The notes beneath the pieces are model-generated. The model had not been told where the DNA came from. It did not search any database and saw only the letters and a program-made list of their open reading frames with translations. From a virus, in IMG/VR virus record IMGVR_UViG_3300037502_002960, positions 1 through 64,000 of that record: 64,000 bases of DNA. One strand, 5' to 3'. Shown piece after piece: positions 30,308 to 61,369 of this stretch (position 1 is the stretch's first letter; each line of letters starts with the position of its first letter). The translations under genes and the position numbers were made by a program.

Positions 30308-31525
30308 TTAAAGTTCAATTCTTATAGGGAGTATTCTGTCTTCTTCAAAAACAACAATTGATTGTGATGGTTTAGTATCATATCCAAGTTGAATACTGTA
30401 GTCTGTTGAACCTTGTAAACAACCACACCCTAATGTCATTCTACCGTGATTCTCTTCGTTGAAGCTCATATGATGAAAATGACCATAAATCAATAAATCA
30501 TAAAATTCATTATCTGACGAAATAAATTTATTAATTTTTTCTTTTGAAGTCTTTTTTAATAAATCACCGTGAACAGTTTTTACTTTTCTACCATTTACAT
30601 CAAAAGACATATCAAAATTACTATTCTTTTTATCAATAATTTTAATGTTTGGATTGCCGATTAAACTAATAAATGACTTGACGCTTGCATCAATAATATT
30701 TTCTGCACTATCACCAGAAATTGTTACAGCCTTATCATACATTCTTGAATGGTTACCAAGAACACTTCCAAGATATTCAACATCTAGCTCTTCTGCTAAA
30801 GTAAGGAGAAAAGAATTAACTATTTCTGTAGCCTTAACAATCTGTTCACTAAATGTAAATTCAATATCGTATGATTGTGTTGGTCTCATGTATCCACCCT
30901 CAACTAAATCGCCAACACCAATTACTTTAACTTTATTCACGTTAAATAATTTACAGTAATGAAACACCTCATTAGCATATTTCTCTACTCTTTTTTTTGC
31001 AATCTCATAATCATAACTATCTGTTTTTAATCCAATGTGCCAATCTGTCATAGGTACAACAATTTCATTTTCTGTAGTAACAAAATTATGTTTCTTGAAT
31101 TTTTCAAACTTTACATCTTTAAAATTATCAACCACCTCTTCAATAAAAAGAGTTTTGTCTATTACGTTTCTTTTAACTTTATTTAGCTCTCTGAATTGAT
31201 TTTGTGCGTTTCTTTTTGCGTAACTAAGTTCACCAACTAATTCTTTTATCGACTCTAGCTTGTTGTCGGAAACCATATCTACATACTTTGCCACTTCTGG
31301 TAATTCGCCAATAGATTTTTGATACCTTTTAATCAATTGTCTATATGTTTCACATCTATCAGAATTATCATAACCTTCTTTTTCCATCATCTTTTTATGT
31401 AAAGACCAATTACATTTACCACTTGGTGAAGCTTTTTGTAATTCTTTTTTGATTTTTACAGCAACATTTAAATGCTCTTCTGTTACAGTAATCTCTTCAC
31501 CTTTTTTATTTATATAACTTCTCAA
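30308..31525 (-). CDS. Calcineurin-like metallophosphoesterase with N-terminal coiled coil
   Basis: DWH, GDLVEG, GNH, HGD, GHFHH motifs. Confidence 0.8.
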   Translation of the reverse strand: MRSYINKKGEEITVTEEHLNVAVKIKKELQKASPSGKCNWSLHKKMMEKEGYDNSDRCETYRQLIKRYQKSIGELPEVAKYVDMVSDNKLESIKELVGELSYAKRNAQNQFRELNKVKRNVIDKTLFIEEVVDNFKDVKFEKFKKHNFVTTENEIVVPMTDWHIGLKTDSYDYEIAKKRVEKYANEVFHYCKLFNVNKVKVIGVGDLVEGGYMRPTQSYDIEFTFSEQIVKATEIVNSFLLTLAEELDVEYLGSVLGNHSRMYDKAVTISGDSAENIIDASVKSFISLIGNPNIKIIDKKNSNFDMSFDVNGRKVKTVHGDLLKKTSKEKINKFISSDNEFYDLLIYGHFHHMSFNEENHGRMTLGCGCLQGSTDYSIQLGYDTKPSQSIVVFEEDRILPIRIEL

Positions 31526-31577
31526 AAACTATCACCTCAAATGTTCAGAATATTCAGAATATTTTAATTAAAAAAAA

Positions 31578-33943: not shown

Positions 33944-35152
33944 TTAAATATCCCCAAAAATTCTACTTGCTTCACTTCTAACGTCAATATCCAGTACTAC
34001 AATGCCAACATTCTTATTACCTTTAAGAGATTCTACGGCATGTTTTAATCCATTGTCTTTAGTGTACTTATACTCTGACTGATTAATATCACCACTAAAA
34101 GCAATAACAGAATTTTTTGCAATTCTTGTACCAACAAGTTTAATTTGTTTGATATCTAAATCTTCTGCCTCATCAACAAACATAAATGTGTCTTCAAAGC
34201 TCATGCCTTTAATATAAAAAGGAATCTCTTTATCCAAAACACCTCTCTGTTCTAGGTAAAAAGCTTCTTGTTCACCGCCATCAAGGTGCTGAACAATTGG
34301 TTTAAAGAAACCGTTTGTTTTTTCTCCTTTATCACCAGATAAGAACCCAATTTCCTCTCCACTGCCAATAGGATTTCTGATTACCATAATTTTAGACTGT
34401 TCACCTTTATCTAAAACAGAATGTAGTGCAACTTTTGTTGTTAAGAATGTTTTACCACTTCCATATGTACCTAGAATAAATTTAATTGGAATATCTTTGT
34501 TATTTAATAAGTCTAATGCGCACTCCTGTAAATCATTCTCTGGATTGATATGTTTAGATTTGTCATCCCATCTAGGTAATTTTAGTTTTACATGTTCTTC
34601 ACCATTCCATCTGTACTTGTCAACAGTTTCTTTATTTAAATTCCTAACAATCAAATACTGATTTACTAGTAGTTCATATTTATTATGATTTAAGTTTGAA
34701 TAAAATTCTGCCATTTCTTTGTCATCCATATCAACAAACTTGTAACCGCCATAAATATCATATAAAGATTCGTTTTCAACAAAAGCCATTTCAACACCAT
34801 ATTGCTTACACTTTTGTCTCAACAGTCTATCATTTGTAATCATCCCATAGCCTTTTTCGATTGCAATATTTAAAATAATATTATCAACATAATCTCCGTC
34901 AAGACCATCTTTTTCTTCAAACTTATAATCATTAATATCTTCAAACTCATACTCGTTTTCGTCTAATATACGTTTTAGATTTCTGATATTCCATTGTAGC
35001 GTACTATCAGATTTTCTTGTTCTCTCAAGATGTTCAATCTCTCTGTTAATATCAGATGGAATAACACAATCGTATTCTTTAATTACCTCTGGGTTTTTTA
35101 ACAAAACATTAGTATCAATAATATATTTCATAAACAGTCTCCTATTCGTCAA
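33944..35152 (-). CDS. phoH: PhoH-family ATPase with N-terminal PIN domain
   Basis: IIDTNVLL (PIN), GTYGSGKT (Walker A), IGFLSG, VDEAED, SGDINQ; probable start ATG at 35131. Confidence 0.9.
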   Translation of the reverse strand: MTNRRLFMKYIIDTNVLLKNPEVIKEYDCVIPSDINREIEHLERTRKSDSTLQWNIRNLKRILDENEYEFEDINDYKFEEKDGLDGDYVDNIILNIAIEKGYGMITNDRLLRQKCKQYGVEMAFVENESLYDIYGGYKFVDMDDKEMAEFYSNLNHNKYELLVNQYLIVRNLNKETVDKYRWNGEEHVKLKLPRWDDKSKHINPENDLQECALDLLNNKDIPIKFILGTYGSGKTFLTTKVALHSVLDKGEQSKIMVIRNPIGSGEEIGFLSGDKGEKTNGFFKPIVQHLDGGEQEAFYLEQRGVLDKEIPFYIKGMSFEDTFMFVDEAEDLDIKQIKLVGTRIAKNSVIAFSGDINQSEYKYTKDNGLKHAVESLKGNKNVGIVVLDIDVRSEASRIFGDI

Positions 35153-35459
35153 ACTCTCTTATATTTTTAAGACCTTCTTTAAGTTTCTTAGATGGTTCAA
35201 CAGACAACTTGTAATATTCATCTGTTTTCATATGCTCTTTTGTTATTGGGTTCATTATTTTTCTACTTTTAACTTTTTTAGTTGATAGAGAGAAAAGTTT
35301 AGTGTATTTGACTTTCTCACCAATCATAAGAGCTGTAATTATTTTTTCAGCTAAGACCTCAAGGATTAGGGCAACTTCTCCTTTTCTTATTCTAAGTTCA
35401 CGAACCCTGTCGTCACTCCAAACTTCGTGAACAAGTTCAGATAATTTCAATTTAATCAC
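35142..35459 (-). CDS. HU/IHF-like DNA-binding protein
   Basis: ALMIGEKV..F..KSRKIMNPITKEHM....PSKKLKE matches the HU arm pattern. Confidence 0.75.
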   Translation of the reverse strand: MIKLKLSELVHEVWSDDRVRELRIRKGEVALILEVLAEKIITALMIGEKVKYTKLFSLSTKKVKSRKIMNPITKEHMKTDEYYKLSVEPSKKLKEGLKNIREFDE

Positions 35460-35729: not shown

Positions 35730-36054
35730 AGCTTACCTCACCGAAAATCATTGTGGTTTGAGTTTTACTTAAATTTGAAAACGGTATTTCTTTTGAACCA
35801 TTTTTTAACCTATTAAGCTTGTTTCTACTCATAATATCTTTATCTTCAATCGTTTCACTAACATCTTCTTCCCTATGCCAAACTAAAAAATTAGCCATTC
35901 CCTCTAGCATATATCTTACCGAGTTGCCATCCCAATTATTATGTATTTCATCTTTCCAAATTTCAAGTATCTTTTCTACTAATTCAACTTTTTCAGACAA
36001 CTCAAGATTTTTATCTAAAAAAATCTTATTGCCATCTGGTAATTTAAGATTCAT
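35716..36054 (-). CDS. Hypothetical protein
   Basis: 112 aa, overlapping coupling, RBS GGGG. Confidence 0.65.
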   Translation of the reverse strand: MNLKLPDGNKIFLDKNLELSEKVELVEKILEIWKDEIHNNWDGNSVRYMLEGMANFLVWHREEDVSETIEDKDIMSRNKLNRLKNGSKEIPFSNLSKTQTTMIFGEVSYDEE

Positions 36055-36493
36055 CTTTGTCCACCCCGTGTTTTATGTAACCGCATTTATACATGGATTC
36101 TTTCCACATTTCATTATTTTTTGAAACTATTTTTTCAACTATCTTATCAAAATATTTATATATCCCTTGTTTACTAATCTTTTTTGTAATATTATATATA
36201 TCCGACAACGTGTGACCCTCGAACATCATATTTATAATCATGCGTTCGTTGTCATTAAATTTGCATCTTTTTATCGTATCCTCAAGAGAAACATAAAGCG
36301 CTATAACCTCTTGGTTTAGTTCTGAAATAGAACCTGCCTCATCAATACTAATCGCTATATTATCTATTCTTGGGTATGTTTTGTCAATACTTTCTCTATG
36401 TTTTATCAAATATTTTACTACATTGTGGTCGGATAATGTAAGAAGGTAATAATCTCTTTCTTTAGCTTTAATATCTATTGAGACAGAACCCAT
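36044..36493 (-). CDS. Sigma region-4-like HTH protein (possible late regulator)
   Basis: FNDNERMIINMMFEGHTLSDI..ISKQGIYKYFDKIVEKI resembles a sigma4 HTH. Confidence 0.6.
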   Translation of the reverse strand: MGSVSIDIKAKERDYYLLTLSDHNVVKYLIKHRESIDKTYPRIDNIAISIDEAGSISELNQEVIALYVSLEDTIKRCKFNDNERMIINMMFEGHTLSDIYNITKKISKQGIYKYFDKIVEKIVSKNNEMWKESMYKCGYIKHGVDKDES

Positions 36494-36523: not shown

Positions 36524-36626
36524 AGTATATCATTATTTTTTACTTTTGTCAAGTAAAAAATATACAATATTTCAAATATTCTGAATATTTTTTACCTTTG
36601 ACATAAATAAAAAATGATGTTATAAT
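36524..36626. promoter_or_regulatory. Divergent sigmaA promoter pair with a CodY-like triplet between the -35 boxes
   Basis: Minus: TTGACA(36552-36547)-N17-TATACT. Plus: TTGACA(36598)-N17-TATAAT(36621). AATATTTCA-AATATTCTG-AATATTTTT at 36566-36592. Confidence 0.75.
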
Positions 36627-36665: not shown

Positions 36666-37484
36666 TTGATTGAAATTTTGCATGAGATAAAGAGAATGTA
36701 TGGCGAGGCTTACATACAAGTACCAAATAAGATTTTCAAAAATATATCTTCTGTTACAAATGATTCTAGACAAAACTCATTTTGCTTTTCATATATAACT
36801 TTGTTAGGATTTCTGTATAAATATACTGCTTACGTAAATCCAAATTTAAATACATATGTACAGGCAAAAGATATAAAGACTTTATTGGGCTACAGTGAAA
36901 AAACAAAGACAATCAACAGGTTAATAAAGGAAAACGGTATTCTAGAGGACAAAGGTTTTATAAAAACAACAAAAAAGATACCTGTATACGTAAGTTATAG
37001 TGATGATGAAATAAACGGTTATAAAATTATAGAGTTTACAACATTAGATAATATAAAAAACAGAGAAGAATACGATATGTTTAAAAAAATTATAAAAAAC
37101 AGAAACTACAAAATTCAAGAACCGATATATCTTTTTAATGTTGACGGGAAACACGGTACTCTCTATGACTACTCTAACACATTTAAAATAAATATATCTG
37201 AGTTTATTAAATTTATCGAAAACAAAGAAATGGGTAACATGGACATTATGTTTTATTATTATATTAAAAGTCAAACACAGAACAAAAACCATAGAGTTGC
37301 CCCAATATCAATATCATTACTAGAAAAGAATATTGGTTTTTCTAATTCTTCAATCTACAAAACAATAACAAAACTAGAAAAGCTAAATTTAATTTCGGTT
37401 ACAAAGAAAGGTTGGCAAAACATAAAAGATGGTAATAACCCAGAGCCAAATGATTTTTTCTTGAGTTACTTTTTAAGCAGGTAG
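36666..37484 (+). CDS. Winged-HTH DNA-binding protein, putative replication initiator
   Basis: 272 aa; two HTH-like segments (DIKTLLGYSEKTKTINRLIK; SISLLEKNIGFSNSSIYKTITKLEKLNLI); followed by long palindromes. Confidence 0.5.
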   Translation: MIEILHEIKRMYGEAYIQVPNKIFKNISSVTNDSRQNSFCFSYITLLGFLYKYTAYVNPNLNTYVQAKDIKTLLGYSEKTKTINRLIKENGILEDKGFIKTTKKIPVYVSYSDDEINGYKIIEFTTLDNIKNREEYDMFKKIIKNRNYKIQEPIYLFNVDGKHGTLYDYSNTFKINISEFIKFIENKEMGNMDIMFYYYIKSQTQNKNHRVAPISISLLEKNIGFSNSSIYKTITKLEKLNLISVTKKGWQNIKDGNNPEPNDFFLSYFLSR

Positions 37485-37612
37485 CTAAAGTAGAGAAATA
37501 TAATATATTATCTATTAACTAATATATATTTAATTTAGATATATATAATATTAAGATATATATTAAGTGTATTATATTTCTCTGTTTAAGCTACCTCCTA
37601 AAAAAGTAACTC
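37463..37612. repeat. Long inverted repeat with AT-rich core, copy 1
   Basis: Arms of about 43 bp, GAGTTACTTTTTAAGCAGGTAGCTAAAGTAGAGAAATATAATA and its near complement. Confidence 0.9.
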
Positions 37613-37790
37613 TTATTTTTTATTATTTACCACATAAGCAATACTATATGTTAGTGCTGGTTTTGTTTTATTCTTATAACGTATATGAGGACAAAAATAA
37701 GGCTATTCTAGGCTGTTTAAAACGTTGTTTAATGTATTTTATCGTTGGATATTTAAAAACGCCTTAAACGGCTTTATTTTAATTCTCACA

Positions 37791-37930
37791 AGCAGGTAGC
37801 TAAAGTAGAGAAATATAATATATTTAATATATATATAACACTATATTAAATATATATCTAAATGTATTATATTAATATATATATAGTATATTATATTTCT
37901 CTACTTTAGCTACCTCCTTAGAAAGTAACT
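37791..37930. repeat. Long inverted repeat with AT-rich core, copy 2
   Basis: AGCAGGTAGCTAAAGTAGAGAAATATAATATA...TATATTATATTTCTCTACTTTAGCTACCTCCT. Confidence 0.9.
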
Positions 37931-47654: not shown

Positions 47655-48119
47655 ATGAAAGAAAACGTTAAAAACGATACAAGTAGGATAGGATTCAAAG
47701 AGCTTAGTGAATTACTTGGTGAAAGTAAGGATAAGATTATGGATTCTGAATACTTAGATAGGTTAAGGGATGTCTTACATGATGAGGTTGTGGGTAAAGA
47801 AGAAGAAAGTATTAGGATTTATAAACTTATTGAGAAAGCAAAAGACGATTTGACTAATAGGGGTTTAGAATATTCTTATATTTGGTATAACTTATTTTTC
47901 TATGGTGCTGGAATTCATGGAAAAATGGGTATTGGTGAAAAAAGAGAAACTTTTAGACAAGATAGTGAGATGTCTAGGTTAATGTGGATGCAGTGGTTAG
48001 CTAGTGGGTATGTTAGTATATATGAAAAAGGTGAGATGCATATGCTTAATGCATGGGTTAATGTTGCTGACGAACAGTTAAAAGAGTTTGGGAAATTGTA
48101 TAGATATATGCTTGAGTAG
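47655..48119 (+). CDS. Hypothetical protein
   Basis: 154 aa, RBS GGAGG; terminator AGTCTCAGT/ACTGAGGCT plus T tract at 48128-48160. Confidence 0.65.
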   Translation: MKENVKNDTSRIGFKELSELLGESKDKIMDSEYLDRLRDVLHDEVVGKEEESIRIYKLIEKAKDDLTNRGLEYSYIWYNLFFYGAGIHGKMGIGEKRETFRQDSEMSRLMWMQWLASGYVSIYEKGEMHMLNAWVNVADEQLKEFGKLYRYMLE

Positions 48120-48930
48120 TTAATGTGAGTCTCAGTTTTTATACTGAGGCTTATTTTTTTGGTCAATTTTAATATAGGTATGGTGGTTTGGGTAGTGATT
48201 TATTTGAAAAGTAAAAAATATACCCCCTCCCATGCGTGAATCTGGGTATATGTAAATTTTGTGGCACTATATGTAGATTGAGTATTTTTTAATGACCGTA
48301 CATATTGAGGATATTTAGTAATTTTTGGGTGACATTATAGTGTTTAAAAGGGCTAGAAACGTTGGTGTTAAAGGATTTTTGGTAGTTGGTGGTGGTGATA
48401 TTATGGTCAAGTTATGGTTTGGGTGAAAATTTTCAATCGTATGGAAGAGATTTTAGGGGTGGGAAATTATATAATATGGAAGATTAGGTTGGGTTAAGGT
48501 TGGATTGGGGTGAGAGGTTGTGAAAGGCTGATGTAGATAGGGTTTGAGGGTGTTTTAGGTGTGGATAAACAGGTGGATTTAGGGTTTTTTTATGTAGATT
48601 TAGGGTGGATTTAAGGTTAATGTGGAGTGATTTTGAGGTTGTATTTTTGCGTGGACGAGGTTTGATTATGGGTGATTGGGTGTGTTATGGAGGTGATTTA
48701 GGGTGATGGATGTTGACAAGAGATTGAGATAATAGGGTTAATAGAGGGGATTTTAGACGATGTTGAAAAAAGAGTGGGAAATGGGTTTTACGGATGGAAA
48801 AGGGTGTAAATGGGTGAGATTGGGGTGGGATATGGAGAAAATGGGATAGAGGTGAAAATGAACACGGAGTGTGGGAGTTGGAGTGCTATACACATTTTGA
48901 GAACTGGATTGGAAGAAAATGGTAAAAAAC

Positions 48931-48958
48931 TACCCCTATAAGGTACGTTATAGGGACT
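48931..48958. other. dif-like tyrosine-recombinase site (11-6-11)
   Basis: TACCCCTATAA-GGTACG-TTATAGGGACT at the G-rich/C-rich switch between convergent operons. Confidence 0.6.
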
Positions 48959-49475
48959 CCCACCTGGTAGAATATGGCAGGGATAAATGGAAAATTGTGG
49001 TAACCTTGATTGGAAGATTACGGTATTTTACTGTAAGATTATACCAAAGTTTATATCTGTAAAATATGGTAAACCTTCCCACAATCGCCACCTATTGTTA
49101 ACACGGCTTGTTTGGTCTTAGACTTCCAACTACCCTTAGTAACCTCCCTTCCCTCTCTCACTAAATAACTTATAGTAACCTACTTACTTTTTGTAACCAA
49201 CCTGAACCAACCCCACAACCTCCAACCCTAAAAAAAGGACCAATTCACCACCTACCAATTTTACCAAAAATTCCCAAACTAAAAAATCCTGATCCCCTGA
49301 TCCCTACTCTCTCAGACCCTCACCAAGTGAAACGAACAATACAACTATACATCTTTTAATGTTTCATTCTCTCTAATCGCCTTCTAGCAACATCACCAGG
49401 ACAACCAACCAACCAGCCTATATAACTAAGCATATAAAAAAACCTAGCGACCATAGTCACCAGGTTTTCATCTTA

Positions 49476-50681
49476 TTAGTGGTTATGCGCTTCACATGTT
49501 AACCCTAATACCTTGTTTAATAGCTTAGTGTTCAATCTAATTCTTACAACGTTGTGATATTCATCTATATCATATTCTTCATTATAAGCTGTTACTCTGC
49601 TTTCAAACTCTATCTTCTCTTCTACGTCCTCTTCATATTCAATATAAACATAATACGAACCCGAACCATCGCACATTGGACAGGACACGTCCCGATAATC
49701 GTATTCCTCAGTTATGGGGTTCTCAAAATCTAACTCAATCTCTCCGTCCCCCTCGCACAACGGGCAATCTATTTCCACGTCATCGCTAAATGTTACATAG
49801 CTTGTAACATAATCAGTATATGAAGTATAATAACCACCGTCGAAATCATTTGTTATAACTTCACTCTCACTTAAGCGACCGCTTACCTCTTTCCCAAATA
49901 CTCTTTTATTTAATTCCTGGATTAATTCTAACCCTCTCTCTAATGTTTGAGTGTTTTCATTCTTTCCATAGAGCTTTGTGGGTACTAATATATTAAATCC
50001 TTCATAGTTAACCTCTTTCATAATAACCCTTGCCATAAAACTATCACTTATATTGTCAATGCTTTTCACGTCTTCCAGGTTCTCATGTAAGAAAGCCACG
50101 TATAAAGAAGTATCATAGACCGAACCGATTAAGCGCTGATTGTATCTATCTCCTCCATGATATGTTTTTTGACATGATGACCAGCTCCCGTCATTATAGT
50201 TAGTCATTCCAGCGACTACGTGAGGCATAGCAGATATAGTTATATATGCATCGCCTTCAATCTTTTCAATTGAACTGTACCAATCTAAAACCGTCTGATT
50301 AATACCCATTTTATTTAACTTCTTGGATAACTTCGTCCCGTTTTCTAATCGATTATTTATAAAGTTATCATAAGTTAAAGAGTTTAAAAACTCTTTAACT
50401 TCTTTCACTTTATCGAACTTTTTCTTTTTCTCGTCTTCACTATCGTATAATCTAGCATAATCTAAGACCCCGATTATTAATTCTTTAAAGGTGTTAAACT
50501 CTTTTAATAACTGAGTTTTAACTTTATAAGTGCCTTCACCAATATGAACCCGTTCCCGATATTCAAAATCGAACATATCACCAGCTTCTAACATAGAGAC
50601 CATCTCATCATATGAATCATTGAAAGAGATACACTCTTTCATAATATCACCTAAAAACTCAACTTTTTTACTGTTTGTCAT
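49476..50681 (-). CDS. Hypothetical protein with DnaJ-type CxxCxGxG motifs
   Basis: 401 aa; WSSCQ; CPLCEGDG and CPMCDGSG; RBS AAGGGAG. Confidence 0.75.
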   Translation of the reverse strand: MTNSKKVEFLGDIMKECISFNDSYDEMVSMLEAGDMFDFEYRERVHIGEGTYKVKTQLLKEFNTFKELIIGVLDYARLYDSEDEKKKKFDKVKEVKEFLNSLTYDNFINNRLENGTKLSKKLNKMGINQTVLDWYSSIEKIEGDAYITISAMPHVVAGMTNYNDGSWSSCQKTYHGGDRYNQRLIGSVYDTSLYVAFLHENLEDVKSIDNISDSFMARVIMKEVNYEGFNILVPTKLYGKNENTQTLERGLELIQELNKRVFGKEVSGRLSESEVITNDFDGGYYTSYTDYVTSYVTFSDDVEIDCPLCEGDGEIELDFENPITEEYDYRDVSCPMCDGSGSYYVYIEYEEDVEEKIEFESRVTAYNEEYDIDEYHNVVRIRLNTKLLNKVLGLTCEAHNH

Positions 50682-50760
50682 TTTAAAAACTCCCTTTCGT
50701 TTTTTCCATTTTTTTGGTAAATTTTTTTAACCGCTTTTTCTAATCCCCAAACTTAAAATT

Positions 50761-51237
50761 TTATAGGTACCCTTTTTCCTTTAATGAAAGATAACTATTA
50801 CTAGCAATGTCTCCTGGTACAATTAAAGAGTCTAATAATTGAATCCCTACCAACTCCCCAACTTGCTTGAGTCTTTCAGTTACCCTTATATCTTCTTGAG
50901 ACGGTGCGCAATCCCCACTAGGATGATTATGAGCAACTATGAAACTAGTTGCATTTCCAACAACCAAGGACTTAAACACTTCTCTTGGGTGGACTATTGA
51001 ACTATTTACCGTTCCGATTGATACCGTTTCAATAAAATTCACTTTGTTCTTGGTATCAAGACCGAGAACGATAAATTGTTCCCTATCTGAACCCTCTAAA
51101 TATTGATTAATTATTTTTGCGCATGATTCTGGACTCTTTACAATATTGTTCTCGTACCATTCGATTGACTCTCTTACTAACTTCACTCTTACACTTTCGA
51201 TTTTTTTCTTGCCTTTGTTAACGTTCATTTTAAGCAC
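50761..51237 (-). CDS. radC: RadC-like JAB/JAMM domain protein
   Basis: DREQF, VHPREVF, HNHPSGD..PSQED. Confidence 0.9.
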   Translation of the reverse strand: MLKMNVNKGKKKIESVRVKLVRESIEWYENNIVKSPESCAKIINQYLEGSDREQFIVLGLDTKNKVNFIETVSIGTVNSSIVHPREVFKSLVVGNATSFIVAHNHPSGDCAPSQEDIRVTERLKQVGELVGIQLLDSLIVPGDIASNSYLSLKEKGYL

Positions 51238-51275
51238 GTCCTTTTTTAGTATTTTAGATAATTAATATTATAATA

Positions 51276-51581
51276 TTAATTGTTAACCCACTCACTGATA
51301 GCTTGAGCAGGATTTTTTTCAAGCTCTTCTTGTCTCTCCTTCCACTCTTTAACCTCTTCATTTTTTACCATTGTTAACGTATATTGACCGTTGTCAATGG
51401 TTATTCTATGTTTAATATCTTTATGAATATTTAAATCGGTTACACGCTTTAAATACTCTACTGTTTCATAGTATTCAATAGCTACAATGTAACGACTATA
51501 TCCAATCGTTAAACCTGCTAAAATTGAAGCTATAAACCCGTATACCAAAACATGTTGACCGAACTTTTTTAACTTTCCCAT
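51276..51581 (-). CDS. Hypothetical membrane-anchored protein
   Basis: 101 aa, N-terminal hydrophobic helix. Confidence 0.6.
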   Translation of the reverse strand: MGKLKKFGQHVLVYGFIASILAGLTIGYSRYIVAIEYYETVEYLKRVTDLNIHKDIKHRITIDNGQYTLTMVKNEEVKEWKERQEELEKNPAQAISEWVNN

Positions 51582-51654
51582 TTTCTACCATTCCTTTCAA
51601 CTTCCATTTTTTGGAAAGAGTCTGTTTCTTTTGTTTCCCTCTTTCGTTACACTC

Positions 51655-51684
51655 ATCATAGCATTGTATAAGGACTCTTGTCAA
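51655..51684 (-). promoter_or_regulatory. Promoter of the leftward radC operon
   Basis: TTGACA-N18-TATGAT with TG extension. Confidence 0.55.
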
Positions 51685-51696
51685 ACGACCAACCGC

Positions 51697-52499
51697 AAAC
51701 CCTACAGCCCCAAGGGATACAGCTACTGTAAAAAATTTACATTGTATGAAATCGGTTGCACTATACATAGTTATTCACTGTTTATTCACTTTTTAGCACA
51801 CCTGTCCCCACGAAAAACTGTATGCAAACGGTTGCGCACTAGGGGTATAAATTAAAAAAACTTTTGTGTGAACGAAAATAAAATAAACCGCTTCAACCCT
51901 ACAGCCCCAACGGCTCCAGGACTTGCGACCTTGTGAAATAAAAAATACTTTCATGAAACACTGTGCAACAATGATTTTTTTTATGTATATTGATGCATAT
52001 TCATACTATAAGCGCTTTCAAGAAGGTATACCCCTCCAGGTACTGAAAACCCTACAGCGCCAAGGGATTGAAGCACTTTTACCATTTTATGTATAATGTA
52101 TATCTGTGAATATTCATTGAATAACCATACGGGGTATTTTGATCCCTTTTCTTCTATATAATAGTGAAAAATCGTAACGAAACCAAGCCGAAAAACGCTA
52201 TATAATAGAAGAAACTCGGTAAGGACTTTTTACCCATAAAAACGCTGCCTTTATCGTGACTATATTCCCACATGAAACGCTGCGTTTTCTAGTTCAATAG
52301 TCACGCGCGTTTTAAAGCCGTTTTAAACCCCTCTGAGACGTTTTAAGCCTTCAAGGTACAAACACCTTAAGCAACCTTGTTTATACCCCTTTTCAAAAGT
52401 ACCCCACGGGGTATATACCCTAACGGGGTATATGTATTTTACTTGTGAACTTGACAAAATCGAAAAAGTGTGAACCCTTACTCTCCCAAGGGATACAGC
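51697..52499 (+). repeat. Four dispersed copies of AACCCT-N9/10-A(G/C)GG
   Basis: Copies at 51697, 51895, 52047 and 52473; consensus AACCCTACAGCCCCAAGGGATACAGC. Confidence 0.8.
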
Positions 52500-52582
52500 C
52501 GTTTTTTAAAATAAAAAGTTTGTGAAAAATTTCGATACCCTAGGTGGTATATAAAAAAATGTACCTATACCCCTAGGGGTAT
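52028..52582. promoter_or_regulatory. Cluster of six CsoR-family-like operators (TACC..GGTA)
   Basis: Sites at 52028, 52122, 52399, 52415, 52535 and 52567 (perfect palindrome ATACCCCTAGGGGTAT). Confidence 0.55.
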
Positions 52583-52736
52583 CATATGGTTAAAAAATGT
52601 AAAAAATGGTATATTTTTTTAAAATTGTAAAAAAATAACTATCCATATAAGTTTACATTATTTTACTGTAAAAAAATAACTTATATATAAGTTTCCAATA
52701 TTTACCAATTTTAAAAAAGTTATTTTTTACCAAATG

Positions 52737-53291
52737 AATTTTCAGACAATTCAGATAATTAAGAATATTCAAATAATTTTAAATTTTCAGAAAATTCATA
52801 ATAGTCAGAAAATTCAAAAAAATAAGATAATTCTAAATATTTTAAATTGTTAGAATATTCAGATAATTCAAACAATTATGACTATTCTTAATATTCTAAA
52901 TTTTCTGAAAATTCAAAAAATTCTGAAAATTCAAAAAATTCTGAAAATTAAGAATAGTCAGACAATTCTAAATTTTCAAACAATTATGAAAATTCAAACA
53001 ATTCATAATATTCATATAATTAAAAATTTTCAGATAATTCTAAATAATCTAAATTTTCAGATAATCCAAACAATTCATAATATTCTAAATAATCAGATAA
53101 TTCAAAAAATTCATAATTTTCTGATAATTCTAGCAGACCAAAAATGATCCATTTTTAATTATCAGAAAATTCATAATATTCAAACAATTCAGAAAATTCA
53201 ATTAATTAAATATTCAGAAAATTCAGATAATATAGCAAGTTTTCAGATAATTCATAATATTCAGACAATTCAGAATTTTCAAAAAATTCAG
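52737..53291. repeat. 9-bp tandem array (AAWWTTCWG) equivalent to overlapping CodY boxes
   Basis: 44 in-register units at 52737-53132 plus about 13 more; perfect AATTTTCWGAAAATT at 52782 and 52899. The repeat is directly seen; CodY binding is inferred. Confidence 0.85.
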
Positions 53292-53626
53292 CCCTGCGAA
53301 GCTTATTTTTAAATAATAAAATAAATAATAAATAAAAAATTAAATATAGATTCTCACCCCCTTATTAACAGCGAGCCTAAAATATTACGGGTGATTTTTG
53401 AAAATCAAAAAAATTTTTTGAAATTTTTTAAAAATTTGCTTCTATTATTAACAGAAACCCTAAAAAATTACGGGCAATTTTTGAAAGTTAAAAAATTTTT
53501 AAATTTTTCTTTCCTATATAATATAGAAGAAAAAAATATTTTTAAATTTTATACATATAATCTGTTGACAAAAGACAAAGATAATGATATAATAGGTTTA
53601 TAATAAAAAAACAAGGAGATGTTAAC

Positions 53627-53896
53627 ATGAAAAACATTGATGTAATTAAAGCTTTTGTAAATGGAGCAGGTAAAGGAAAAAATAAAAGACTTTCTATTAA
53701 AGGTAATAAACTGTTCGACTACAATACTATTATTTGTGAAAAAACTAATAAAGGGTACAACTTAAATAAAACAAAATACAGTAAATCAACAAGTGCCGTT
53801 CAAAGTATGTTGTCAAAAGAAATTGACTCAAATAACATTAATGGAAAAGTTACCTTGTTTGATAATGTAGAAATCAATTCAAGCGATTTAAAATAA
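53627..53896 (+). CDS. Hypothetical early protein
   Basis: 89 aa, RBS AAGGAG; LFDYNTII..KYSKSTS. Confidence 0.7.
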   Translation: MKNIDVIKAFVNGAGKGKNKRLSIKGNKLFDYNTIICEKTNKGYNLNKTKYSKSTSAVQSMLSKEIDSNNINGKVTLFDNVEINSSDLK

Positions 53897-53933
53897 CTAA
53901 GGATGAAATATAGTAAAACAAAAATCAAATAGA

Positions 53934-54257
53934 TTGGTGGACGACAATATGGAATCAAATAATTATATTATTGAAAGAAATATTAAATCAAGAGAAGACC
54001 TTTTAAATGGTATAAAATTATTACTTGAATCATATGTAAAAAGAACGAATGAATCTGGAGATGACAAATTAATCAATCACTTCTTAGAATTAATTCAACA
54101 TAGATATGATAACTTCATTGTAAGACATGAATATGTGGACGGTAATGGGCAACATGAGCCTTTAAAGGTTACAAAAATATCATATCTTATTGACCATGTA
54201 TTCACTATTAAAAAAGATATAGACACTGACAAGATTGTACTTGAATCATACATTTAA
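53934..54257 (+). CDS. Hypothetical early protein
   Basis: 107 aa; start codon uncertain. Confidence 0.6.
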   Translation: MVDDNMESNNYIIERNIKSREDLLNGIKLLLESYVKRTNESGDDKLINHFLELIQHRYDNFIVRHEYVDGNGQHEPLKVTKISYLIDHVFTIKKDIDTDKIVLESYI

Positions 54258-54345
54258 AAGTTGTAAAAGGTTTCAAGCTAATAAATAAATCAAAATTCTT
54301 TTATACCTTTTATATGCATATTATATTATAGTTTTTATGCACAAA

Positions 54346-54546
54346 CAAATATATATAGTGCACTACAAACCTATATATGCACACATAATATGCATAATAC
54401 TATATATGGTATGATAAAAACATATATACACTATATATAGATTAAATCCATGAATATAAACCATTTTTACCCATATATAGACGAATTTTTACTACACATA
54501 CTACATGTAGTGTCTACATATAGGTTATACATACTACATATGGACA
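54346..54546. promoter_or_regulatory. Cluster of NrdR-box-like palindromes
   Basis: ACACTATATATAGATT (54428), ATACTACATGTAGTGT (54498), ATACTATATATGGTAT (54397) and weaker copies. Confidence 0.6.
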
Positions 54547-54952
54547 TTTTAGCCAATTTTTGCTTAATAAAATTAACCTTTTATAAAATATATAAATTTT
54601 AGGTAAAATATATCCTAAAATTTATATAAAAGTATATATACTAATTCGTCGCCAGAAAACGGTTCGAGTTTCTACAGACTCTTATAAAACTGGTTATGTA
54701 TACCCCTATATTACCTATATGTGTGCCCAAAACCGTTTCAATTTCTACGGGTCGCCCAATTTTCTGATTGACCCCACCCCCTAAAAGGGTTTGAGTTTTT
54801 AAAACCGTTTCAAAATTATGAACCTATATGAAGCCAGAAAAGGGTTTGAAATTTTAAAATCAATTTGGAAAATAAAAACGATATACCCCGTTGACAAAAC
54901 TAAAGATAAATGGTATAATTAAATCAATAAATTAGAAAGGTTGTGAAAATAA

Positions 54953-55096
54953 ATGTGGACATGGTTTTGGTTTGTATTATGTATGATTCAAATGCCTTTA
55001 ACAATGCTATTATTACATAGTTTAATTCTTGTTAAAAAGAAATATAACTATGAACAAGAATTTAAAAGAGCTATTGATAATCATATAAAAAAATAA
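54953..55096 (+). CDS. 47-aa single-pass membrane protein (not in the ORF track)
   Basis: MWTWFWFVLCMIQMPLTMLLLHSLILVKKKY.. with its own promoter and AAAGG RBS. Confidence 0.6.
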   Translation: MWTWFWFVLCMIQMPLTMLLLHSLILVKKKYNYEQEFKRAIDNHIKK

Positions 55097-55184
55097 AAAC
55101 AAAAATTTTTATTAAAGAGACTGTTGACAAACGATTAAAATAATGATATAATTATATTATAGAAAAGGAAAGGGAGTTATTAAA

Positions 55185-55508
55185 ATGAACGAATTAAAAG
55201 TGTATAAAAACTTAAGTCAAAATGTAAAGAATGAAATTGAAGAGAATTTAGAATTCATTTTTGAAAAATATGAATCAGTAGAATCATTAATTGAGCAAGG
55301 TGAAATTAGATTATTTAATAGAAGTCAATTAATTGAATTTCTATTCTTTGACGATAGCAATAGTGATAAAGAGGCATTGCTAGAATTGTTAAACACAACA
55401 GATACACAAATTCAAGGATACAATGATGGATTAGATTATATCGTTCACAATAATTACGACAACGTTTTTGAATTATCAAATGGCATGTATTTGTTTGTAT
55501 GGCACTAA
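55185..55508 (+). CDS. Hypothetical acidic early protein
   Basis: 107 aa, RBS AAGGGAG. Confidence 0.7.
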   Translation: MNELKVYKNLSQNVKNEIEENLEFIFEKYESVESLIEQGEIRLFNRSQLIEFLFFDDSNSDKEALLELLNTTDTQIQGYNDGLDYIVHNNYDNVFELSNGMYLFVWH

Positions 55509-55612
55509 GATTGAATTCTACAAGTGCAGGCGATTCAATTATCGCTTGTACAAAGGACTATTCAATTCAATTAAAGAAAATGATTTGATTATGAAGACAG
55601 TCTAAAAAGGAG

Positions 55613-55825
55613 ATGAACAGAATGGAAAAATTATACGCAGTTCATTTAGTAGATTTAAAAGATAATGGTCAAACGGGTTTTGATTTCTTTGAGTATGAAG
55701 AGGATGCAGATAAGCAATTAGAAAAAATCAATAGTGACATCAAAAAATATAATAAAGAATCTGAGTTTAAAGCTGTCAAAAGACTGGTTGACTATGACTC
55801 AAAAAGAAACGCAGTAAATATTTAA
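55613..55825 (+). CDS. Hypothetical protein
   Basis: 70 aa, RBS AAGGAG (start probably 55622). Confidence 0.65.
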   Translation: MNRMEKLYAVHLVDLKDNGQTGFDFFEYEEDADKQLEKINSDIKKYNKESEFKAVKRLVDYDSKRNAVNI

Positions 55826-55839
55826 AGGAGGTTGAAAAA

Positions 55840-56010
55840 ATGAAAGAGATTAAAACAATTTTAAAAGGAATTGAAAAAGATTTATTAGGTAGTAAGAGAC
55901 AACTTGAGAAAACTGAATATGGTTCAAAAGAATATTATTTCATTAAAGGAAGAATCTCTCAAGCAGAAAATACGATTGCTAAAATTGAAATGGTTTTGGA
56001 AGGAGAATAA
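55840..56010 (+). CDS. Hypothetical 56-aa protein (not in the ORF track)
   Basis: RBS AAGGAGG, MKEIKTILKGIEKDLL.. Confidence 0.65.
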   Translation: MKEIKTILKGIEKDLLGSKRQLEKTEYGSKEYYFIKGRISQAENTIAKIEMVLEGE

Positions 56011-60343: not shown

Positions 60344-61369
60344 ATGTTAAAACAGATAGATAAAGATGTAAAATATATGGAAAAAAGATTTTTTGAACTA
60401 TTAGATATTCATGGGGTTAGTGGTGACGAGGGTAGAGTAAGAGATTACCTTATCAAAGAACTTGCTCAAACAGTTGATAAAATTAAAGTTGATAATTACG
60501 GAAACCTACTTGCAGAAAAGAAATTTAATGGTGGTAAAGGTTCGGTAGTAATGTTATCTTCACACATGGATACAGTTAGAGGCGTTTTAAATGATAGAAA
60601 AGTAATCAAAGATAATAAGGGTAATATTCATTCTAACAAAGGTGCTTTGGGTGCAGATGATAGAGCAGGTATCGCAATCATTTTAGCAACTTATAAAAAG
60701 TTATTAAAAGAAAATGATTTTACTGGTACGGTTAAGTTTGCATTTAGCAGAGAAGAAGAAATTGGTTGTGTTGGTTCAAGTAAGATTGATAAAAATTTCT
60801 ACAAAGACGTTGATTTAGCCATTGTGGTAGATAGACGTGGGAATAGTGATATTGTAGGTGGTTGTTACAGTGCATTCTGTAGTAATGCTGTAGGAGATTT
60901 TATGGAGCATGTAGCTAAGTGTAATAATTTAGATTTTAGAATGGTAGAGGGCGGTATTTCTGATGCAGTGACGTTTTCAGAAAACGGAATCAATTCTGTA
61001 AACATTAGCGCAGGATACTATAATGAACACACAGATAAAGAATATGCAAGTATTTATGATATGGAGAAAAGTTTAGACCTTTTGATGGGAACTTTTGACA
61101 TGGTTAACACCTATAAAGAAGCTTTTGGTAGTGTACCAAAAGATGGAAATGATTGGGTTGGAAAAAAATATAGTTCAGCCTACTTTGAAGATGATTATTA
61201 TAATTACTACGATGATATGTGGTATGAAGAGTCAGACCCTAACGGTGAAGTATTCGCTTATGGTGACGGTAATAACATTTATATCGAGCAAGGAGACCAA
61301 CTAATAACATTAAACAAAAGCACGTTAGATTCTATTGTAACACAAATTTATATAGGGGCTGATAAATAA
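60344..61369 (+). CDS. M20/M28/M42-family zinc peptidase
   Basis: SHMDTV, GADDRAG, REEEIG, VDRRG, YYNEH metal ligands. Confidence 0.88.
   Translation: MLKQIDKDVKYMEKRFFELLDIHGVSGDEGRVRDYLIKELAQTVDKIKVDNYGNLLAEKKFNGGKGSVVMLSSHMDTVRGVLNDRKVIKDNKGNIHSNKGALGADDRAGIAIILATYKKLLKENDFTGTVKFAFSREEEIGCVGSSKIDKNFYKDVDLAIVVDRRGNSDIVGGCYSAFCSNAVGDFMEHVAKCNNLDFRMVEGGISDAVTFSENGINSVNISAGYYNEHTDKEYASIYDMEKSLDLLMGTFDMVNTYKEAFGSVPKDGNDWVGKKYSSAYFEDDYYNYYDDMWYEESDPNGEVFAYGDGNNIYIEQGDQLITLNKSTLDSIVTQIYIGADK

What the first reader, a model, noticed from the sequence alone, without database searches (positions are those of the whole stretch)
52737..53291. A 550-bp array of about 57 overlapping CodY boxes
Seen: 44 consecutive 9-bp units in exact register (52737-53132, 396 bp), consensus AAWWTTCWG, then about 13 more units to 53291. 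Units diverge from each other without indels, which argues for selection on register rather than recent slippage. Adjacent units spell the CodY consensus AATTTTCWGAAAATT, perfectly at 52782-52796 and 52899-52913. Known: CodY (senses branched-chain amino acids and GTP) binds best to tandem 15-bp motifs overlapping by 6 bp, which gives a 9-bp period. Inference: the array could load tens of CodY dimers per genome, as a sink or as a nutrient-gated silencer of the early promoter at 53565. An alternative is a centromere/iteron array for a phage partition protein.
Basis: partly seen in the sequence, partly recalled or inferred. Interest (0 to 1): 0.9.

Follow-up and report, generated by a model that had tools for sequence, protein, structure and literature searches.

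The report
Phage lattice of overlapping CodY-type boxes
A gene-free stretch of a phage genome holds 59 nine-base units spaced as the host nutrient sensor CodY needs to bind side by side, so the phage probably coats this DNA with, or soaks up, that host protein, although binding is untested.

Summary
There are 59 nine-bp units in four in-register blocks: 44 (52737-53132), then 6, 3 and 6 (53157-53291). A 24-bp spacer follows block A, and the later blocks shift register by +6, -2 and +2. Independent contigs of the source sample reproduce the array with 0 differences at flat depth.

The two most conserved columns are A1 (58/59) and T6 (57/59). These are the positions that the CodY-DNA crystal structures (PMC10415144) name as contacted by both neighbouring dimers in overlapping sites. 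The 9-bp offset is the spacing needed for CodY cooperativity.

All 8 sites in the 83-kb contig within one mismatch of the CodY consensus lie in the array. The same 15-mer types cluster in non-coding early regions of phages sharing few or no detectable proteins with this contig (Bastillevirinae, Sextaecvirus, a 57-kb contig). A Tsamsa-like relative has none. No shared phage DNA-binding protein was found.

Best reading, about 0.6: a platform for cooperative loading of host CodY. Whether it acts as a sponge, a barrier or a nutrient gate is inferred. Silencing of P53565, 273 bp away, is not supported by position. Binding is untested and the host is unknown.

This scan has reported CodY-type arrays on other phage DNA. 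This is the longest strictly phased one I saw.

The parts
52737..53132 (.). Block A: 44 nine-bp units in exact register, giving 43 overlapping in-register 15-mers. Predicted strongest nucleation sites (0-1 mismatch to the CodY consensus) are at 52737, 52782, 52899, 53025 and 53115.
   Evidence: Of the 44 in-register 15-mer starts, 18 have <=3 mismatches and 26 have <=4.
53133..53156 (.). 24-bp spacer that breaks the register. It contains the dyad AAAAATG-ATC-CATTTTT (53140-53156).
   Evidence: Sextaecvirus arrays also show a spacer followed by a few more units.
53157..53210 (.). Block B1: 6 units, register +6 relative to block A. The 15-mer at 53157 has 1 mismatch.
53209..53235 (.). Block B2: 3 units, register -2 relative to B1. 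The 15-mer at 53209 has 1 mismatch.
53238..53291 (.). Block B3: 6 units, back in register with B1. The 15-mer at 53274 has 1 mismatch.
53565..53593 (+). Consensus early promoter (TTGACA-17-TATAAT with extended -10), 273 bp downstream of the array. It drives 53627-53896 and the genes after it.
   Evidence: The promoter and first gene are conserved in Thrax3 and in metagenome locus L269.
51655..51684 (-). Leftward promoter-like site (TTGACA-18-TATGAT). It marks the other edge of the ~1.9-kb gene-free control region that holds the array.
31540..31563 (-). Isolated 24-nt double site: two boxes offset by 9 bp, AATATTCTGAATATTCTGAACATT on the minus strand. It lies directly upstream of the ribosome-binding site of gene 30308-31525.
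36575..36589 (.). Isolated box AATATTCTGAATATT between the divergent promoters of the replication-initiator gene (36666-37484) and the 36044-36493 operon.

Best explanation
The array is a loading platform for the host's global nutrient sensor CodY. Each 9-bp unit is a 'shared half-site'. Every in-register pair of units forms a 15-nt CodY-type box that overlaps the next box by 6 nt.

[quoted passage not shown] They would then spread cooperatively through cross-dimer contacts, up to about 55 dimers per genome copy. That figure is inferred from 43+5+2+5 in-register boxes.

I think the most likely consequence is sequestration. One dimer per 9 bp is the densest packing of CodY sites allowed by the geometry seen in the crystal structures. 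As phage DNA replicates, the array would titrate CodY off host operators and derepress the host's amino-acid supply genes. A bound array would also act as a barrier or insulator inside the divergent early control region. Nutrient-dependent gating of phage promoters more plausibly works through the isolated boxes at 31540 and 36575.

Shown: the lattice, its column conservation, its dyad symmetry, and its recurrence in phages that share few or no detectable proteins. Inferred: that CodY is the binder (about 0.7 for binding in vitro). Also inferred: which effect matters (sponge about 0.35, gate or barrier about 0.3).
For: (1) Geometry. 44 units with no indel lie at the 9-bp offset. In PMC10415144 (passages) two dimers bind 24-nt sites made of two 15-nt boxes sharing 6 nt. 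Widening the site to 25 or 26 nt lowers affinity, and at 26 nt cooperativity is lost. The authors state that further dimers can add on either side and that the ureA site takes three.

(2) Contact positions. [quoted passage not shown] It says T15 and T15' of the shared half-site are almost completely conserved in logos. These correspond to unit columns 6 and 1. They are the two most conserved array columns: T6 57/59 and A1 58/59.

(3) Consensus matches. 8 of 8 sites in the contig with <=1 mismatch lie in the array, 2 of them perfect.

(4) Dyad symmetry. The array matches its own reverse complement at 68% identity, E 1e-24. As a single strand it folds with z = -7.1. After a unit ending in G, the next unit has AA at columns 3-4 in 15 of 19 cases, against 10 of 24 otherwise (Fisher p = 0.028). 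This fits a symmetric dimer rather than a direct-repeat binder.

(5) Recurrence across phages. AATWKTCWGAHAATT with <=1 mismatch occurs 30+30 times in Goe5, all but a few in its terminal repeats. It occurs 14+11 times in LY2, 12+9 in vB-SscS-F1 and 10+9 in the 57-kb contig G001. The backwards-read control pattern gives 0-2 per strand.

(6) No shared phage binder. Of 321 ORFs in the contig, only one has tblastn hits in all three fetched genomes. It is homing-endonuclease-like. The DNA-binding proteins found here are an HU-like protein, an HTH_36 replication initiator and a homologue of the Thrax3 regulator. All have homologues in Thrax3. Thrax3 has 0 motif hits.

(7) Real operators. The phage variants AATATTCTGACAATT and AATATTCTGAAAATT are the predicted boxes of the CodY-regulated genes thrC and ilvD in S. 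salivarius (PMC5966866, Table 1 passage).
Against: No binding data exist for any phage array.

The host is unknown. The sample is a subsurface metagenome. Kinship to Bacillus phages is only 58-60% identity in the portal protein.

G9 is present in only 28 of 59 units, against C7 in 48 of 59, so the dyad is imperfect. Column 4 is A in 48 of 59 units where the consensus left half has T. The median in-register box has 4 mismatches.

Tsamsa-like relatives infect CodY-bearing Bacillus yet lack the array.

The array lies 273 bp from the nearest strong promoter, which is not an operator position.

In a related phage (run X3, one contig, depth 4.5) the largest length change is 126 bp, which is 14 x 9. 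However, +12 and -1 indels are also reported inside block A, so register is not strictly kept there.

Sextaecvirus arrays have 1-bp register slips every 2-6 units.

Outside the array, CodY-like sites in the contig are only mildly above chance: 8 with <=2 mismatches against 3.5 +/- 1.8 expected.

Small fast-evolving phage proteins could escape tblastn.
Confidence: 0.6

Rival explanations
1. A phage-encoded, dyad-symmetric regulator binds the lattice. For example, a small early or middle protein could shut off or organise the early region. On this reading the likeness to CodY boxes is convergence, or mimicry of the host operator.
For: Many ORFs around the array have no family match. About half of the genome is missing, since CheckV puts completeness at 51%. 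In the position-homologous region, Thrax3 carries different scattered repeats of the TTACTTACTTT type, as expected if each phage has its own binder. Isolated boxes sit at phage promoters.
Against: The same 15-mer variants recur in four phage records that share few or no detectable proteins with this contig. No protein other than a homing-endonuclease-like ORF is shared by this contig and all three fetched genomes. There is no CodY-type HTH in the contig. The near-invariant columns coincide with the CodY contact positions.
Confidence: 0.17
2. The array is a partition centromere of the parC, tubC or omega-heptad type, serving a plasmid-prophage state. An unidentified phage centromere-binding protein would coat it.
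For: Contiguous short iterons next to a promoter are typical of type Ib, II and III centromeres (recalled). Tsamsa-like relatives are temperate and encode ParM plus a putative RHH partner (PMC9703825 passages; annotation). The unseen half of the genome could hold a partition module.
Against: The contig has no homologue of the Thrax3 ParM or its neighbour gp12, and the ParM-to-relaxase module is absent from the syntenic place. There is no RHH_1 match. The StbA_N search found nothing, but its control was silent, so that result is inconclusive. The motif also fills non-coding early regions of Herelleviridae and Sextaecvirus phages; I recall these as virulent, and no call checked that. There is no match in 72,556 plasmid records. 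Dyad symmetry and the 9-bp lattice fit CodY better than known centromere binders.
Confidence: 0.07
3. The array is a purely structural DNA element. Candidates are an easily unwound or superhelically writhed AT tract, a wrapping site for the phage HU-like protein, an insulator between divergent early units, or an injection pause site like that of T5.
For: GC is about 17%, with A-tracts phased at 9 bp. The phage encodes an HU-like protein at 35142-35459. The array lies in a ~1.9-kb gene-free hub, about 3-4 kb from the convergent region at 48.1-49.4 kb. That region corresponds by synteny to the genome end of Thrax3.
Against: Shape alone does not explain near-invariant A1 and T6 alongside free variation at columns 2, 3, 8 and 9. 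It also does not explain the recurrence of the discrete 15-mer as isolated, scattered sites in other phages. The HU homologue is also present in Thrax3, which lacks the motif. Curvature was not computed.
Confidence: 0.07
4. The array is replication-origin iterons, a structured RNA, a coding repeat or an assembly artefact.
For: Tandem iterons are typical of origins. As RNA the stretch folds with z = -7.1. Two ORFs of 39 and 89 aa are open across the array.
Against: A replication-initiator homologue (36666-37484) has its own AT-rich repeats at 37.5-37.9 kb. There is no Rfam match at E <= 1 and no strong promoter pointing into the array. The low folding energy follows from the dyad-symmetric units. 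The open frames lack ribosome-binding sites, and T6 would be an invariant third codon position, which is the opposite of coding constraint. Contigs of two samples reproduce the array at flat depth.
Confidence: 0.05

Closest known systems
CodY operators with overlapping 15-nt boxes (24-nt sites; hutP with two boxes, ureA with three) in Bacillota
   Same: The box consensus AATTTTCWGAAAATT is the same, as is the 9-nt offset with 6-nt overlap. The near-invariant T and A of the shared half-site match. Weak individual boxes are rescued by cooperativity (PMC10415144 passages).
   Different: The largest run named in the passages I read has 3 overlapping boxes, at a host promoter. This array has 43 in one uninterrupted lattice plus 12 more. 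It lies on a phage and is 273 bp from the nearest strong promoter. Binding is untested.
Scattered CodY-type box clusters in other phages: Bastillevirinae terminal repeats (Goe5, LY2), Sextaecvirus (vB-SscS-F1, TPWB06, PG-2021, DH5) and the 57-kb IMG/VR contig G001
   Same: The 15-mer variants are the same. All clusters lie in gene-free DNA next to consensus early promoters, and all include some 24-nt double sites.
   Different: In those phages the boxes are mostly separate, or in runs of 2-6 units with 1-bp slips. Here the boxes form one strictly phased lattice. I found no paper that describes any of these clusters.
Spo0A boxes and parS sites in the genome of virulent Bacillus phage phi29 (recalled; no paper read here)
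   Same: A phage carries binding sites for a host global regulator, so that its early transcription follows the host's physiological state.
   Different: The regulator differs (Spo0A, not CodY). phi29 has a few discrete sites that overlap promoters, not a tandem lattice.
Iteron centromeres and operator arrays of plasmids: omega-protein heptads, ParR/parC, TubR/tubC (recalled). PMC10415144 notes that TubR shares CodY's dimerised recognition-helix mode.
   Same: These are contiguous short repeats coated cooperatively by many dimers into a helical nucleoprotein filament, placed next to a promoter.
   Different: Their periods are 7, 10-11 or 12 bp. The binder is encoded next to the site and is element-specific. 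No such gene was found here, and the motif is shared across phage lineages.
Decoy or titrating tandem transcription-factor sites (PMC3322331 and PMC8599769; search listing and abstract start only)
   Same: The concept is the same: repeated binding sites sequester a regulator and reshape the response of its target genes.
   Different: PMC3322331 is a synthetic yeast system; PMC8599769 concerns response-regulator decoy DNA sites. My searches found no natural phage example for CodY.

Membership tests
CodY operator (overlapping-box type) | 15-nt box resembling AATTTTCWGAAAATT | tested here: met
   2 perfect boxes and 8 with <=1 mismatch, all inside the array. 25 of 59 in-register starts have <=3 mismatches.
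CodY operator (overlapping-box type) | Neighbouring boxes offset by exactly 9 nt (6-nt overlap), the spacing needed for cross-dimer cooperativity | tested here: met
   44 units run without an indel, followed by blocks of 6, 3 and 6. The requirement comes from PMC10415144.
CodY operator (overlapping-box type) | Near-invariant T (position 6/15) and its symmetric A in the shared half-site | tested here: met
   T6 57/59 and A1 58/59, the two most conserved columns. The rule comes from PMC10415144.
CodY operator (overlapping-box type) | Dyad symmetry of the box (C7 and G9 equally kept) | tested here: inconclusive
   The array matches its own reverse complement at 68%, and the fold z-score is -7.1. 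But G9 is kept in 28/59 units against C7 in 48/59. The paper says T6 alone can take the Ser215 bond.
CodY operator (overlapping-box type) | Host encodes CodY | not testable with these tools
   The host is unknown (subsurface metagenome). The nearest cultured phages infect Bacillus. PMC10415144 lists Bacilli, Clostridia, Listeria and Staphylococci as CodY-bearing. The phage itself has no HTH_CodY match.
CodY operator (overlapping-box type) | Ligand-dependent binding of CodY and an effect on transcription | not testable with these tools
   This needs EMSA, footprinting or ChIP.
CodY operator (overlapping-box type) | Site overlaps or lies just beside or downstream of the regulated promoter | tested here: not met
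   The array ends 273 bp upstream of the -35 of P53565. The isolated sites at 36575 and 31540 do lie at a promoter and just upstream of a ribosome-binding site.
Partition centromere (parC / tubC / omega-type) | Cognate centromere-binding protein and NTPase genes in the element, usually adjacent | tested here: not met
   There is no hit to the Thrax3 ParM or gp12 and no RHH_1 match. The StbA_N search was empty but its control was silent. Only 83 kb of an estimated ~160 kb was seen.
Partition centromere (parC / tubC / omega-type) | Iteron sequence specific to the element and its binder | tested here: not met
   The same motif occurs in four other phage records that share few or no detectable proteins with this contig.
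Replication-origin iterons | Iterons adjacent to the initiator gene or an unwinding element | tested here: not met
   The initiator homologue is at 36666-37484, with its own AT-rich repeats at 37520-37896. The array is 15 kb away.

The most novel reading that the evidence does not exclude
The array is a phage-borne DNA sponge. It polymerises active CodY into a helical filament of about 55 dimers per genome copy. After replication this drains the cell's free CodY, so the host switches on its starvation regulon (amino-acid synthesis, peptide uptake, proteases) in the middle of plenty, to the phage's benefit. It may be one module of a multi-operator 'sponge' hub, since other palindrome families fill the same 3-kb gene-free region.
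Probability: 0.3. Interest if true: 0.85.

Novelty: new variant of a known kind. Interest (0 to 1): 0.7.

Why it matters
CodY is the master link between nutrition, stationary-phase functions and virulence in low-GC Gram-positive bacteria.

If phages carry dense CodY-site arrays, then one of two things follows. Either phages read the host's nutritional state through a host regulator, or they reprogramme host metabolism with nothing but non-coding DNA. The second would be a DNA decoy against a global transcription factor.

I found no paper describing either for CodY in six full-text searches.

This array is also a ready-made natural substrate for a question left open by the crystal structures: can CodY form long cooperative filaments on DNA, and what would they look like? 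Culturable phages with the same boxes make the idea directly testable. Examples are Goe5 and LY2 on B. thuringiensis/cereus and vB-SscS-F1 on M. sciuri.

Tried and rejected
Scan of viral contigs with a 5-unit degenerate pattern. Nearly all were perfect simple or coding 9-bp repeats, many from giant-virus bins. Only L078 (contig G001) was a comparable heterogeneous array. I took no counts from this scan.

Scan of genome contigs with a 24-nt pattern. My array filter found only 6 short runs in 5 loci. No statement on taxonomic distribution can be made from it.

Searches for relatives.
- The search for related loci with the 89-aa and 401-aa neighbouring proteins found nothing in viral contigs.
- In metagenome contigs it found 5 loci. 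None of the 5 has a CodY-like site with <=2 mismatches. The one with the same promoter (L269) has only 328 bp of upstream sequence.
- The search for homologous proteins found one relative, P0002.
- The plasmid collection gave no match.

RNA and expression. There was no Rfam match at E <= 1 in 48000-56000 and no tRNA in the window. No RNA holder is listed among the sequencing runs.

Partition genes. The StbA_N family search was empty, but its control rang in none of the 14 control genomes, so it is inconclusive.

Higher-order periods. TRF reported periods of 18 to 72 bp. These are not real structure, because unit-lag identities are flat at 0.62-0.69.

Coding reading: rejected, as explained under the rivals.

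The other operator families claimed for this region by earlier notes (CsoR-like TACCCC..GGGGTA dyads, NrdR-like boxes) I only saw in the sequence. I did not test them.

Not computed: DNA curvature, a CodY position-weight matrix from ChIP data, and CodY abundance against site number.

Papers.
- PMC10415144, PMC5966866, PMC3903500 and PMC9703825 were read only as 'find' passages.
- PMC3322331 and PMC8599769 were seen only as a search listing.
- Recalled and not read: Wray and Fisher on overlapping CodY sites, roadblock repression by CodY, phi29 and Spo0A, omega/ParR/TubR, and the T5 injection stop.
- Supplements are closed. Supplementary Figures S11 (T-to-A/G mutants) and S13 (three-dimer EMSA and model) of PMC10415144 bear on the argument, and I could not see them.
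Full report
WHAT IS THERE. The window is the first 64 kb of an 83,359-bp IMG/VR viral contig. CheckV estimates it as 51% complete, and GC is 31%. From 52737 to 53132 there are 44 nine-bp units with no indel. Column counts are A1 44/44, T6 43/44, T5 38/44, A4 36/44, C7 35/44 and G9 19/44.

A 24-bp spacer follows (53133-53156) and contains the dyad AAAAATG-ATC-CATTTTT. After it come 15 more units in three in-register runs: 53157-53210, 53209-53235 and 53238-53291. The register shifts are +6, -2 and +2. Over all 59 units, A1 is kept in 58 and T6 in 57.

The units are diverged. There are 28 distinct sequences among the 44, with mean pairwise identity 0.66. No higher-order period exists, because identity is flat at 0.62-0.69 for unit lags 1 to 12. 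Neighbours are slightly less alike than in shuffled unit order (0.618 against 0.656 +/- 0.019). The multi-unit periods that TRF reported are therefore not real structure, and the array does not look like recent slippage.

IS IT REAL DNA? Logan contigs of run X1, which is probably the source sample, cover 51600-54300 in two pieces with 0 differences. Depth is flat at 52.6-52.8, so nothing is collapsed. Run X2, a second sample of the same study, covers 52586-52834 and 52987-53161 with 0 differences.

Run X3 comes from another study and holds a relative; its four main pieces differ from the window at about 7-11% of laid positions. One X3 contig of depth 4.5 skips 155 bp of block A and has 29 other letters in their place. 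The net loss is 126 bp, which is 14 x 9. The same contig also shows +12 and -1 changes inside block A. So the largest length change keeps the lattice, but register is not strictly kept in that low-depth relative.

CONTEXT. The array lies in about 1.9 kb of gene-free DNA. On the left is a leftward promoter-like site at 51684-51655. It faces genes that include a RadC-like protein and a phrog_7429 protein. On the right is a perfect extended -10 promoter at 53565-53593. Two more perfect promoters lie at 54891 and 55124. The array ends 273 bp before the -35 of P53565.

The phage is a distant relative of the Tsamsa-like giant Bacillus siphoviruses. Identities are 58-60% for the portal protein and 49% for the RecD-like helicase. 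The order of the initiator, regulator, HU and YlaK genes is conserved.

By synteny with Thrax3, the replication initiator is at 36666-37484, with AT-rich repeats at 37.5-37.9 kb. The convergent gap at 48.1-49.4 kb corresponds to the Thrax3 genome end. The array is therefore neither of these elements.

Thrax3 keeps the homologous first gene and promoter, but it has no 9-bp array. Its 1.5-kb gap holds other scattered repeats.

WHY CodY. The consensus AATTTTCWGAAAATT occurs perfectly at 52782 and 52899. All 8 of the contig's sites with <=1 mismatch are in the array, where 0.2 would be expected elsewhere by chance.

The structural paper on S. aureus and E. faecalis CodY (PMC10415144; passages) reports the following.
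- Regulatory regions typically hold two 15-nt boxes sharing 6 nt.
- Two dimers bind such a site cooperatively through cross-dimer contacts.
- Widening the site by 1 or 2 bp lowers affinity, and at 2 bp cooperativity is lost.
- More dimers can add on either side, and the ureA site takes three.
- Recognition is mostly by the shape of narrow AT minor grooves.
- Only two base-specific bonds form per protomer: Ser215 to T6 or G18', and Met237 to T24'.
- In the shared half-site, T15 and T15' are touched by both dimers and are almost invariant in logos.

In a continuous lattice every unit is a shared half-site, and T15 and T15' correspond to unit columns 6 and 1. These are exactly the two near-invariant columns of the array, while columns 2, 3, 8 and 9 vary freely. 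I regard this as the strongest single argument, because it was not built into the search.

The lattice is also dyad-symmetric, as a homodimer site should be.
- It matches its own reverse complement at 68% identity (E 1e-24).
- As a single strand it folds far below shuffles (z = -7.1).
- A unit ending in G tends to be followed by a unit with AA at columns 3-4, which completes TTCWGAAAA (15 of 19 against 10 of 24, p = 0.028).

The symmetry is imperfect: G9 is kept in 28/59 units against C7 in 48/59. The paper's statement that T6 alone can take the Ser215 bond softens this point but does not remove it.

HOST FACTOR OR PHAGE FACTOR? A blastn search with the array found similar DNA in Sextaecvirus phages of Mammaliicoccus and S. 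pseudintermedius. It also found similar DNA in Bastillevirinae myoviruses of the B. cereus group.

In Sextaecvirus, runs of 2-6 units sit in the same kind of divergent gap, before a TTGACA promoter. In Goe5 and LY2 the motif is scattered as discrete 15-mers, with AATATTCTGACAATT and AATAGTCTGACAATT recurring most often. They lie among the early promoters of a gene-free region; in Goe5 they occur at both ends of the record.

I counted AATWKTCWGAHAATT with <=1 mismatch on the forward and reverse strands, against the same pattern read backwards as control.
- Goe5: 30+30 (control 0+2).
- LY2: 14+11 (0+0).
- vB-SscS-F1: 12+9 (2+1).
- G001, a 57-kb contig estimated 96% complete: 10+9 (0+0).
- Thrax3: 0+0 (2+2).

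These phages share little with the contig. Of its 321 ORFs of >=40 aa, 11 have any tblastn hit in vB-SscS-F1, G001 or Goe5. Only one hits all three, and it is a DUF2726/NUMOD4 homing-endonuclease-like protein. LY2 was not included in this protein comparison.

The recognisable DNA-binding proteins of the contig are an HU-like protein, an HTH_36 initiator and a homologue of the Thrax3 regulator. All are shared with Thrax3, which lacks the motif. The contig has no CodY-type HTH.

The exact phage variants are also predicted operators of CodY-regulated genes in a bacterium. In S. salivarius, thrC has AATATTCTGACAATT and ilvD has AATATTCTGAAAATT (PMC5966866).

A conserved host protein is therefore the economical binder. 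A small, fast-evolving phage protein cannot be excluded.

WHAT IT MIGHT DO. Two isolated sites in the window sit where a regulator would act. One is a 24-nt double site directly upstream of the ribosome-binding site of 30308-31525. The other is a box between the divergent promoters at the initiator gene. Overall, sites outside the array are only mildly above chance: 8 with <=2 mismatches against 3.5 +/- 1.8.

The big array is too far from P53565 to be a normal operator, and far larger than regulation needs. One dimer per 9 bp is the densest packing of CodY sites allowed by the crystal-structure geometry. I therefore favour sequestration, in which replicated phage DNA titrates CodY and derepresses host supply genes. 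A nutrient-dependent barrier inside the control hub is my second choice.

These functional statements are inference. I could not obtain CodY copy numbers.

An early gene for an M42/M28-type aminopeptidase lies downstream at 60344-61369. It fits an amino-acid-supply theme but proves nothing.

RIVALS. The centromere reading lacks any partner gene in the 83 kb and conflicts with the cross-lineage motif. The origin, RNA, coding and artefact readings fail on context, Rfam, codon-position logic and read support. A purely structural role does not explain the column pattern.

KNOWN OR NEW. CodY operators and their overlapping architecture are well known. Six full-text searches found no paper that describes CodY-type site arrays in phage genomes. 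The passages I saw in the Tsamsa and Tyrovirus papers, found with repeat, non-coding, origin and terminal-repeat search terms, do not describe this region. The Sextaecvirus papers were seen only as a search listing.

Within this scan, at least eight follow-up reports on other phage DNA reached the same reading. I had reached mine before reading them, and I re-derived the Bastillevirinae case myself. The difference here is the single strictly phased lattice of 44 units, against a maximum of three overlapping boxes named in the passages I read.

I class it as a new variant of a known kind. It is interesting and directly testable, but unproven.

Noticed in passing
window 27107-27964 and 28269-29078 (minus strand): The large terminase homologue is split into two pieces that match the C- and N-terminal halves of the Thrax3 TerL.
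   Followed up: no
window 52028-52582: Several G/C-tract dyads of the type TACCCC-N-GGGGTA occur, for example at 52399-52431, 52535-52555 and 52567-52585. A 40-bp direct repeat lies at 52626-52703. Earlier notes call the dyads CsoR-like operators. I did not test this.
   Followed up: no
window 54340-54550: A 600-bp gene-free gap between the first early operon and promoter P54891 is filled with CTATATATAG-type dyads.
   Followed up: no
window 52148-52215; L007 3790-3810; L001 3780-3800; L002 3835-3850: The element TTTCTTCTATATAA, here part of an inverted repeat, is conserved in the control regions of this phage, Thrax3 and the Sextaecvirus phages. The word AAACGCTATATAATA is also found in this phage and Thrax3. 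These gene-free hubs are therefore partly homologous.
   Followed up: partly
window 53362-53405 and 53445-53488: Two homologous segments (TTATTAACAG...ATTACGGG..ATTTTTGAAA) lie 83 bp apart, between the array and P53565. Thrax3, Sextaecvirus and L269 have analogous paired modules before the same promoter.
   Followed up: no
window 60344-61369: An early-region gene encodes an M42/M28/M20-type aminopeptidase. This is an unusual phage gene that would raise the amino-acid supply.
   Followed up: no
window 36666-37896: A replication-initiator homologue (HTH_36, 36% identity to the Thrax3 initiator) is followed by AT-rich 15-23-bp repeats and an (AT)n tract at 37520-37896. This is the likely origin of replication.
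   Followed up: partly
window 48120-49475: A 1.3-kb gene-free gap lies between convergent operons, with GC of 37% and 11- and 17-bp repeats. By synteny it corresponds to the terminal-repeat junction of Thrax3.
   Followed up: no
G001 (L258 13880-14150 and 15000-15230): A 57-kb IMG/VR phage has three 36-bp repeats that each carry AATATTCTGACAATT. It also has inverted and 9-bp-offset double boxes, and a second 9-bp array before an early promoter.
   Followed up: partly
L250 1-1900 (Goe5) and L249 2000-2950 (LY2): In Goe5 some CodY-type boxes lie just upstream of -35 elements and just downstream of -10 elements of promoter-like sequences (read by eye; no promoter scan was run). LY2 has similar scattered boxes in its gene-free region.
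   Followed up: partly
PQ358086.1 (L002): 'Arcanobacterium phage TPWB06' gives the same blastn row as the Mammaliicoccus sciuri phages PG-2021 over this region: same query range, identity and score. Its stated actinobacterial host therefore looks doubtful.
   Followed up: no
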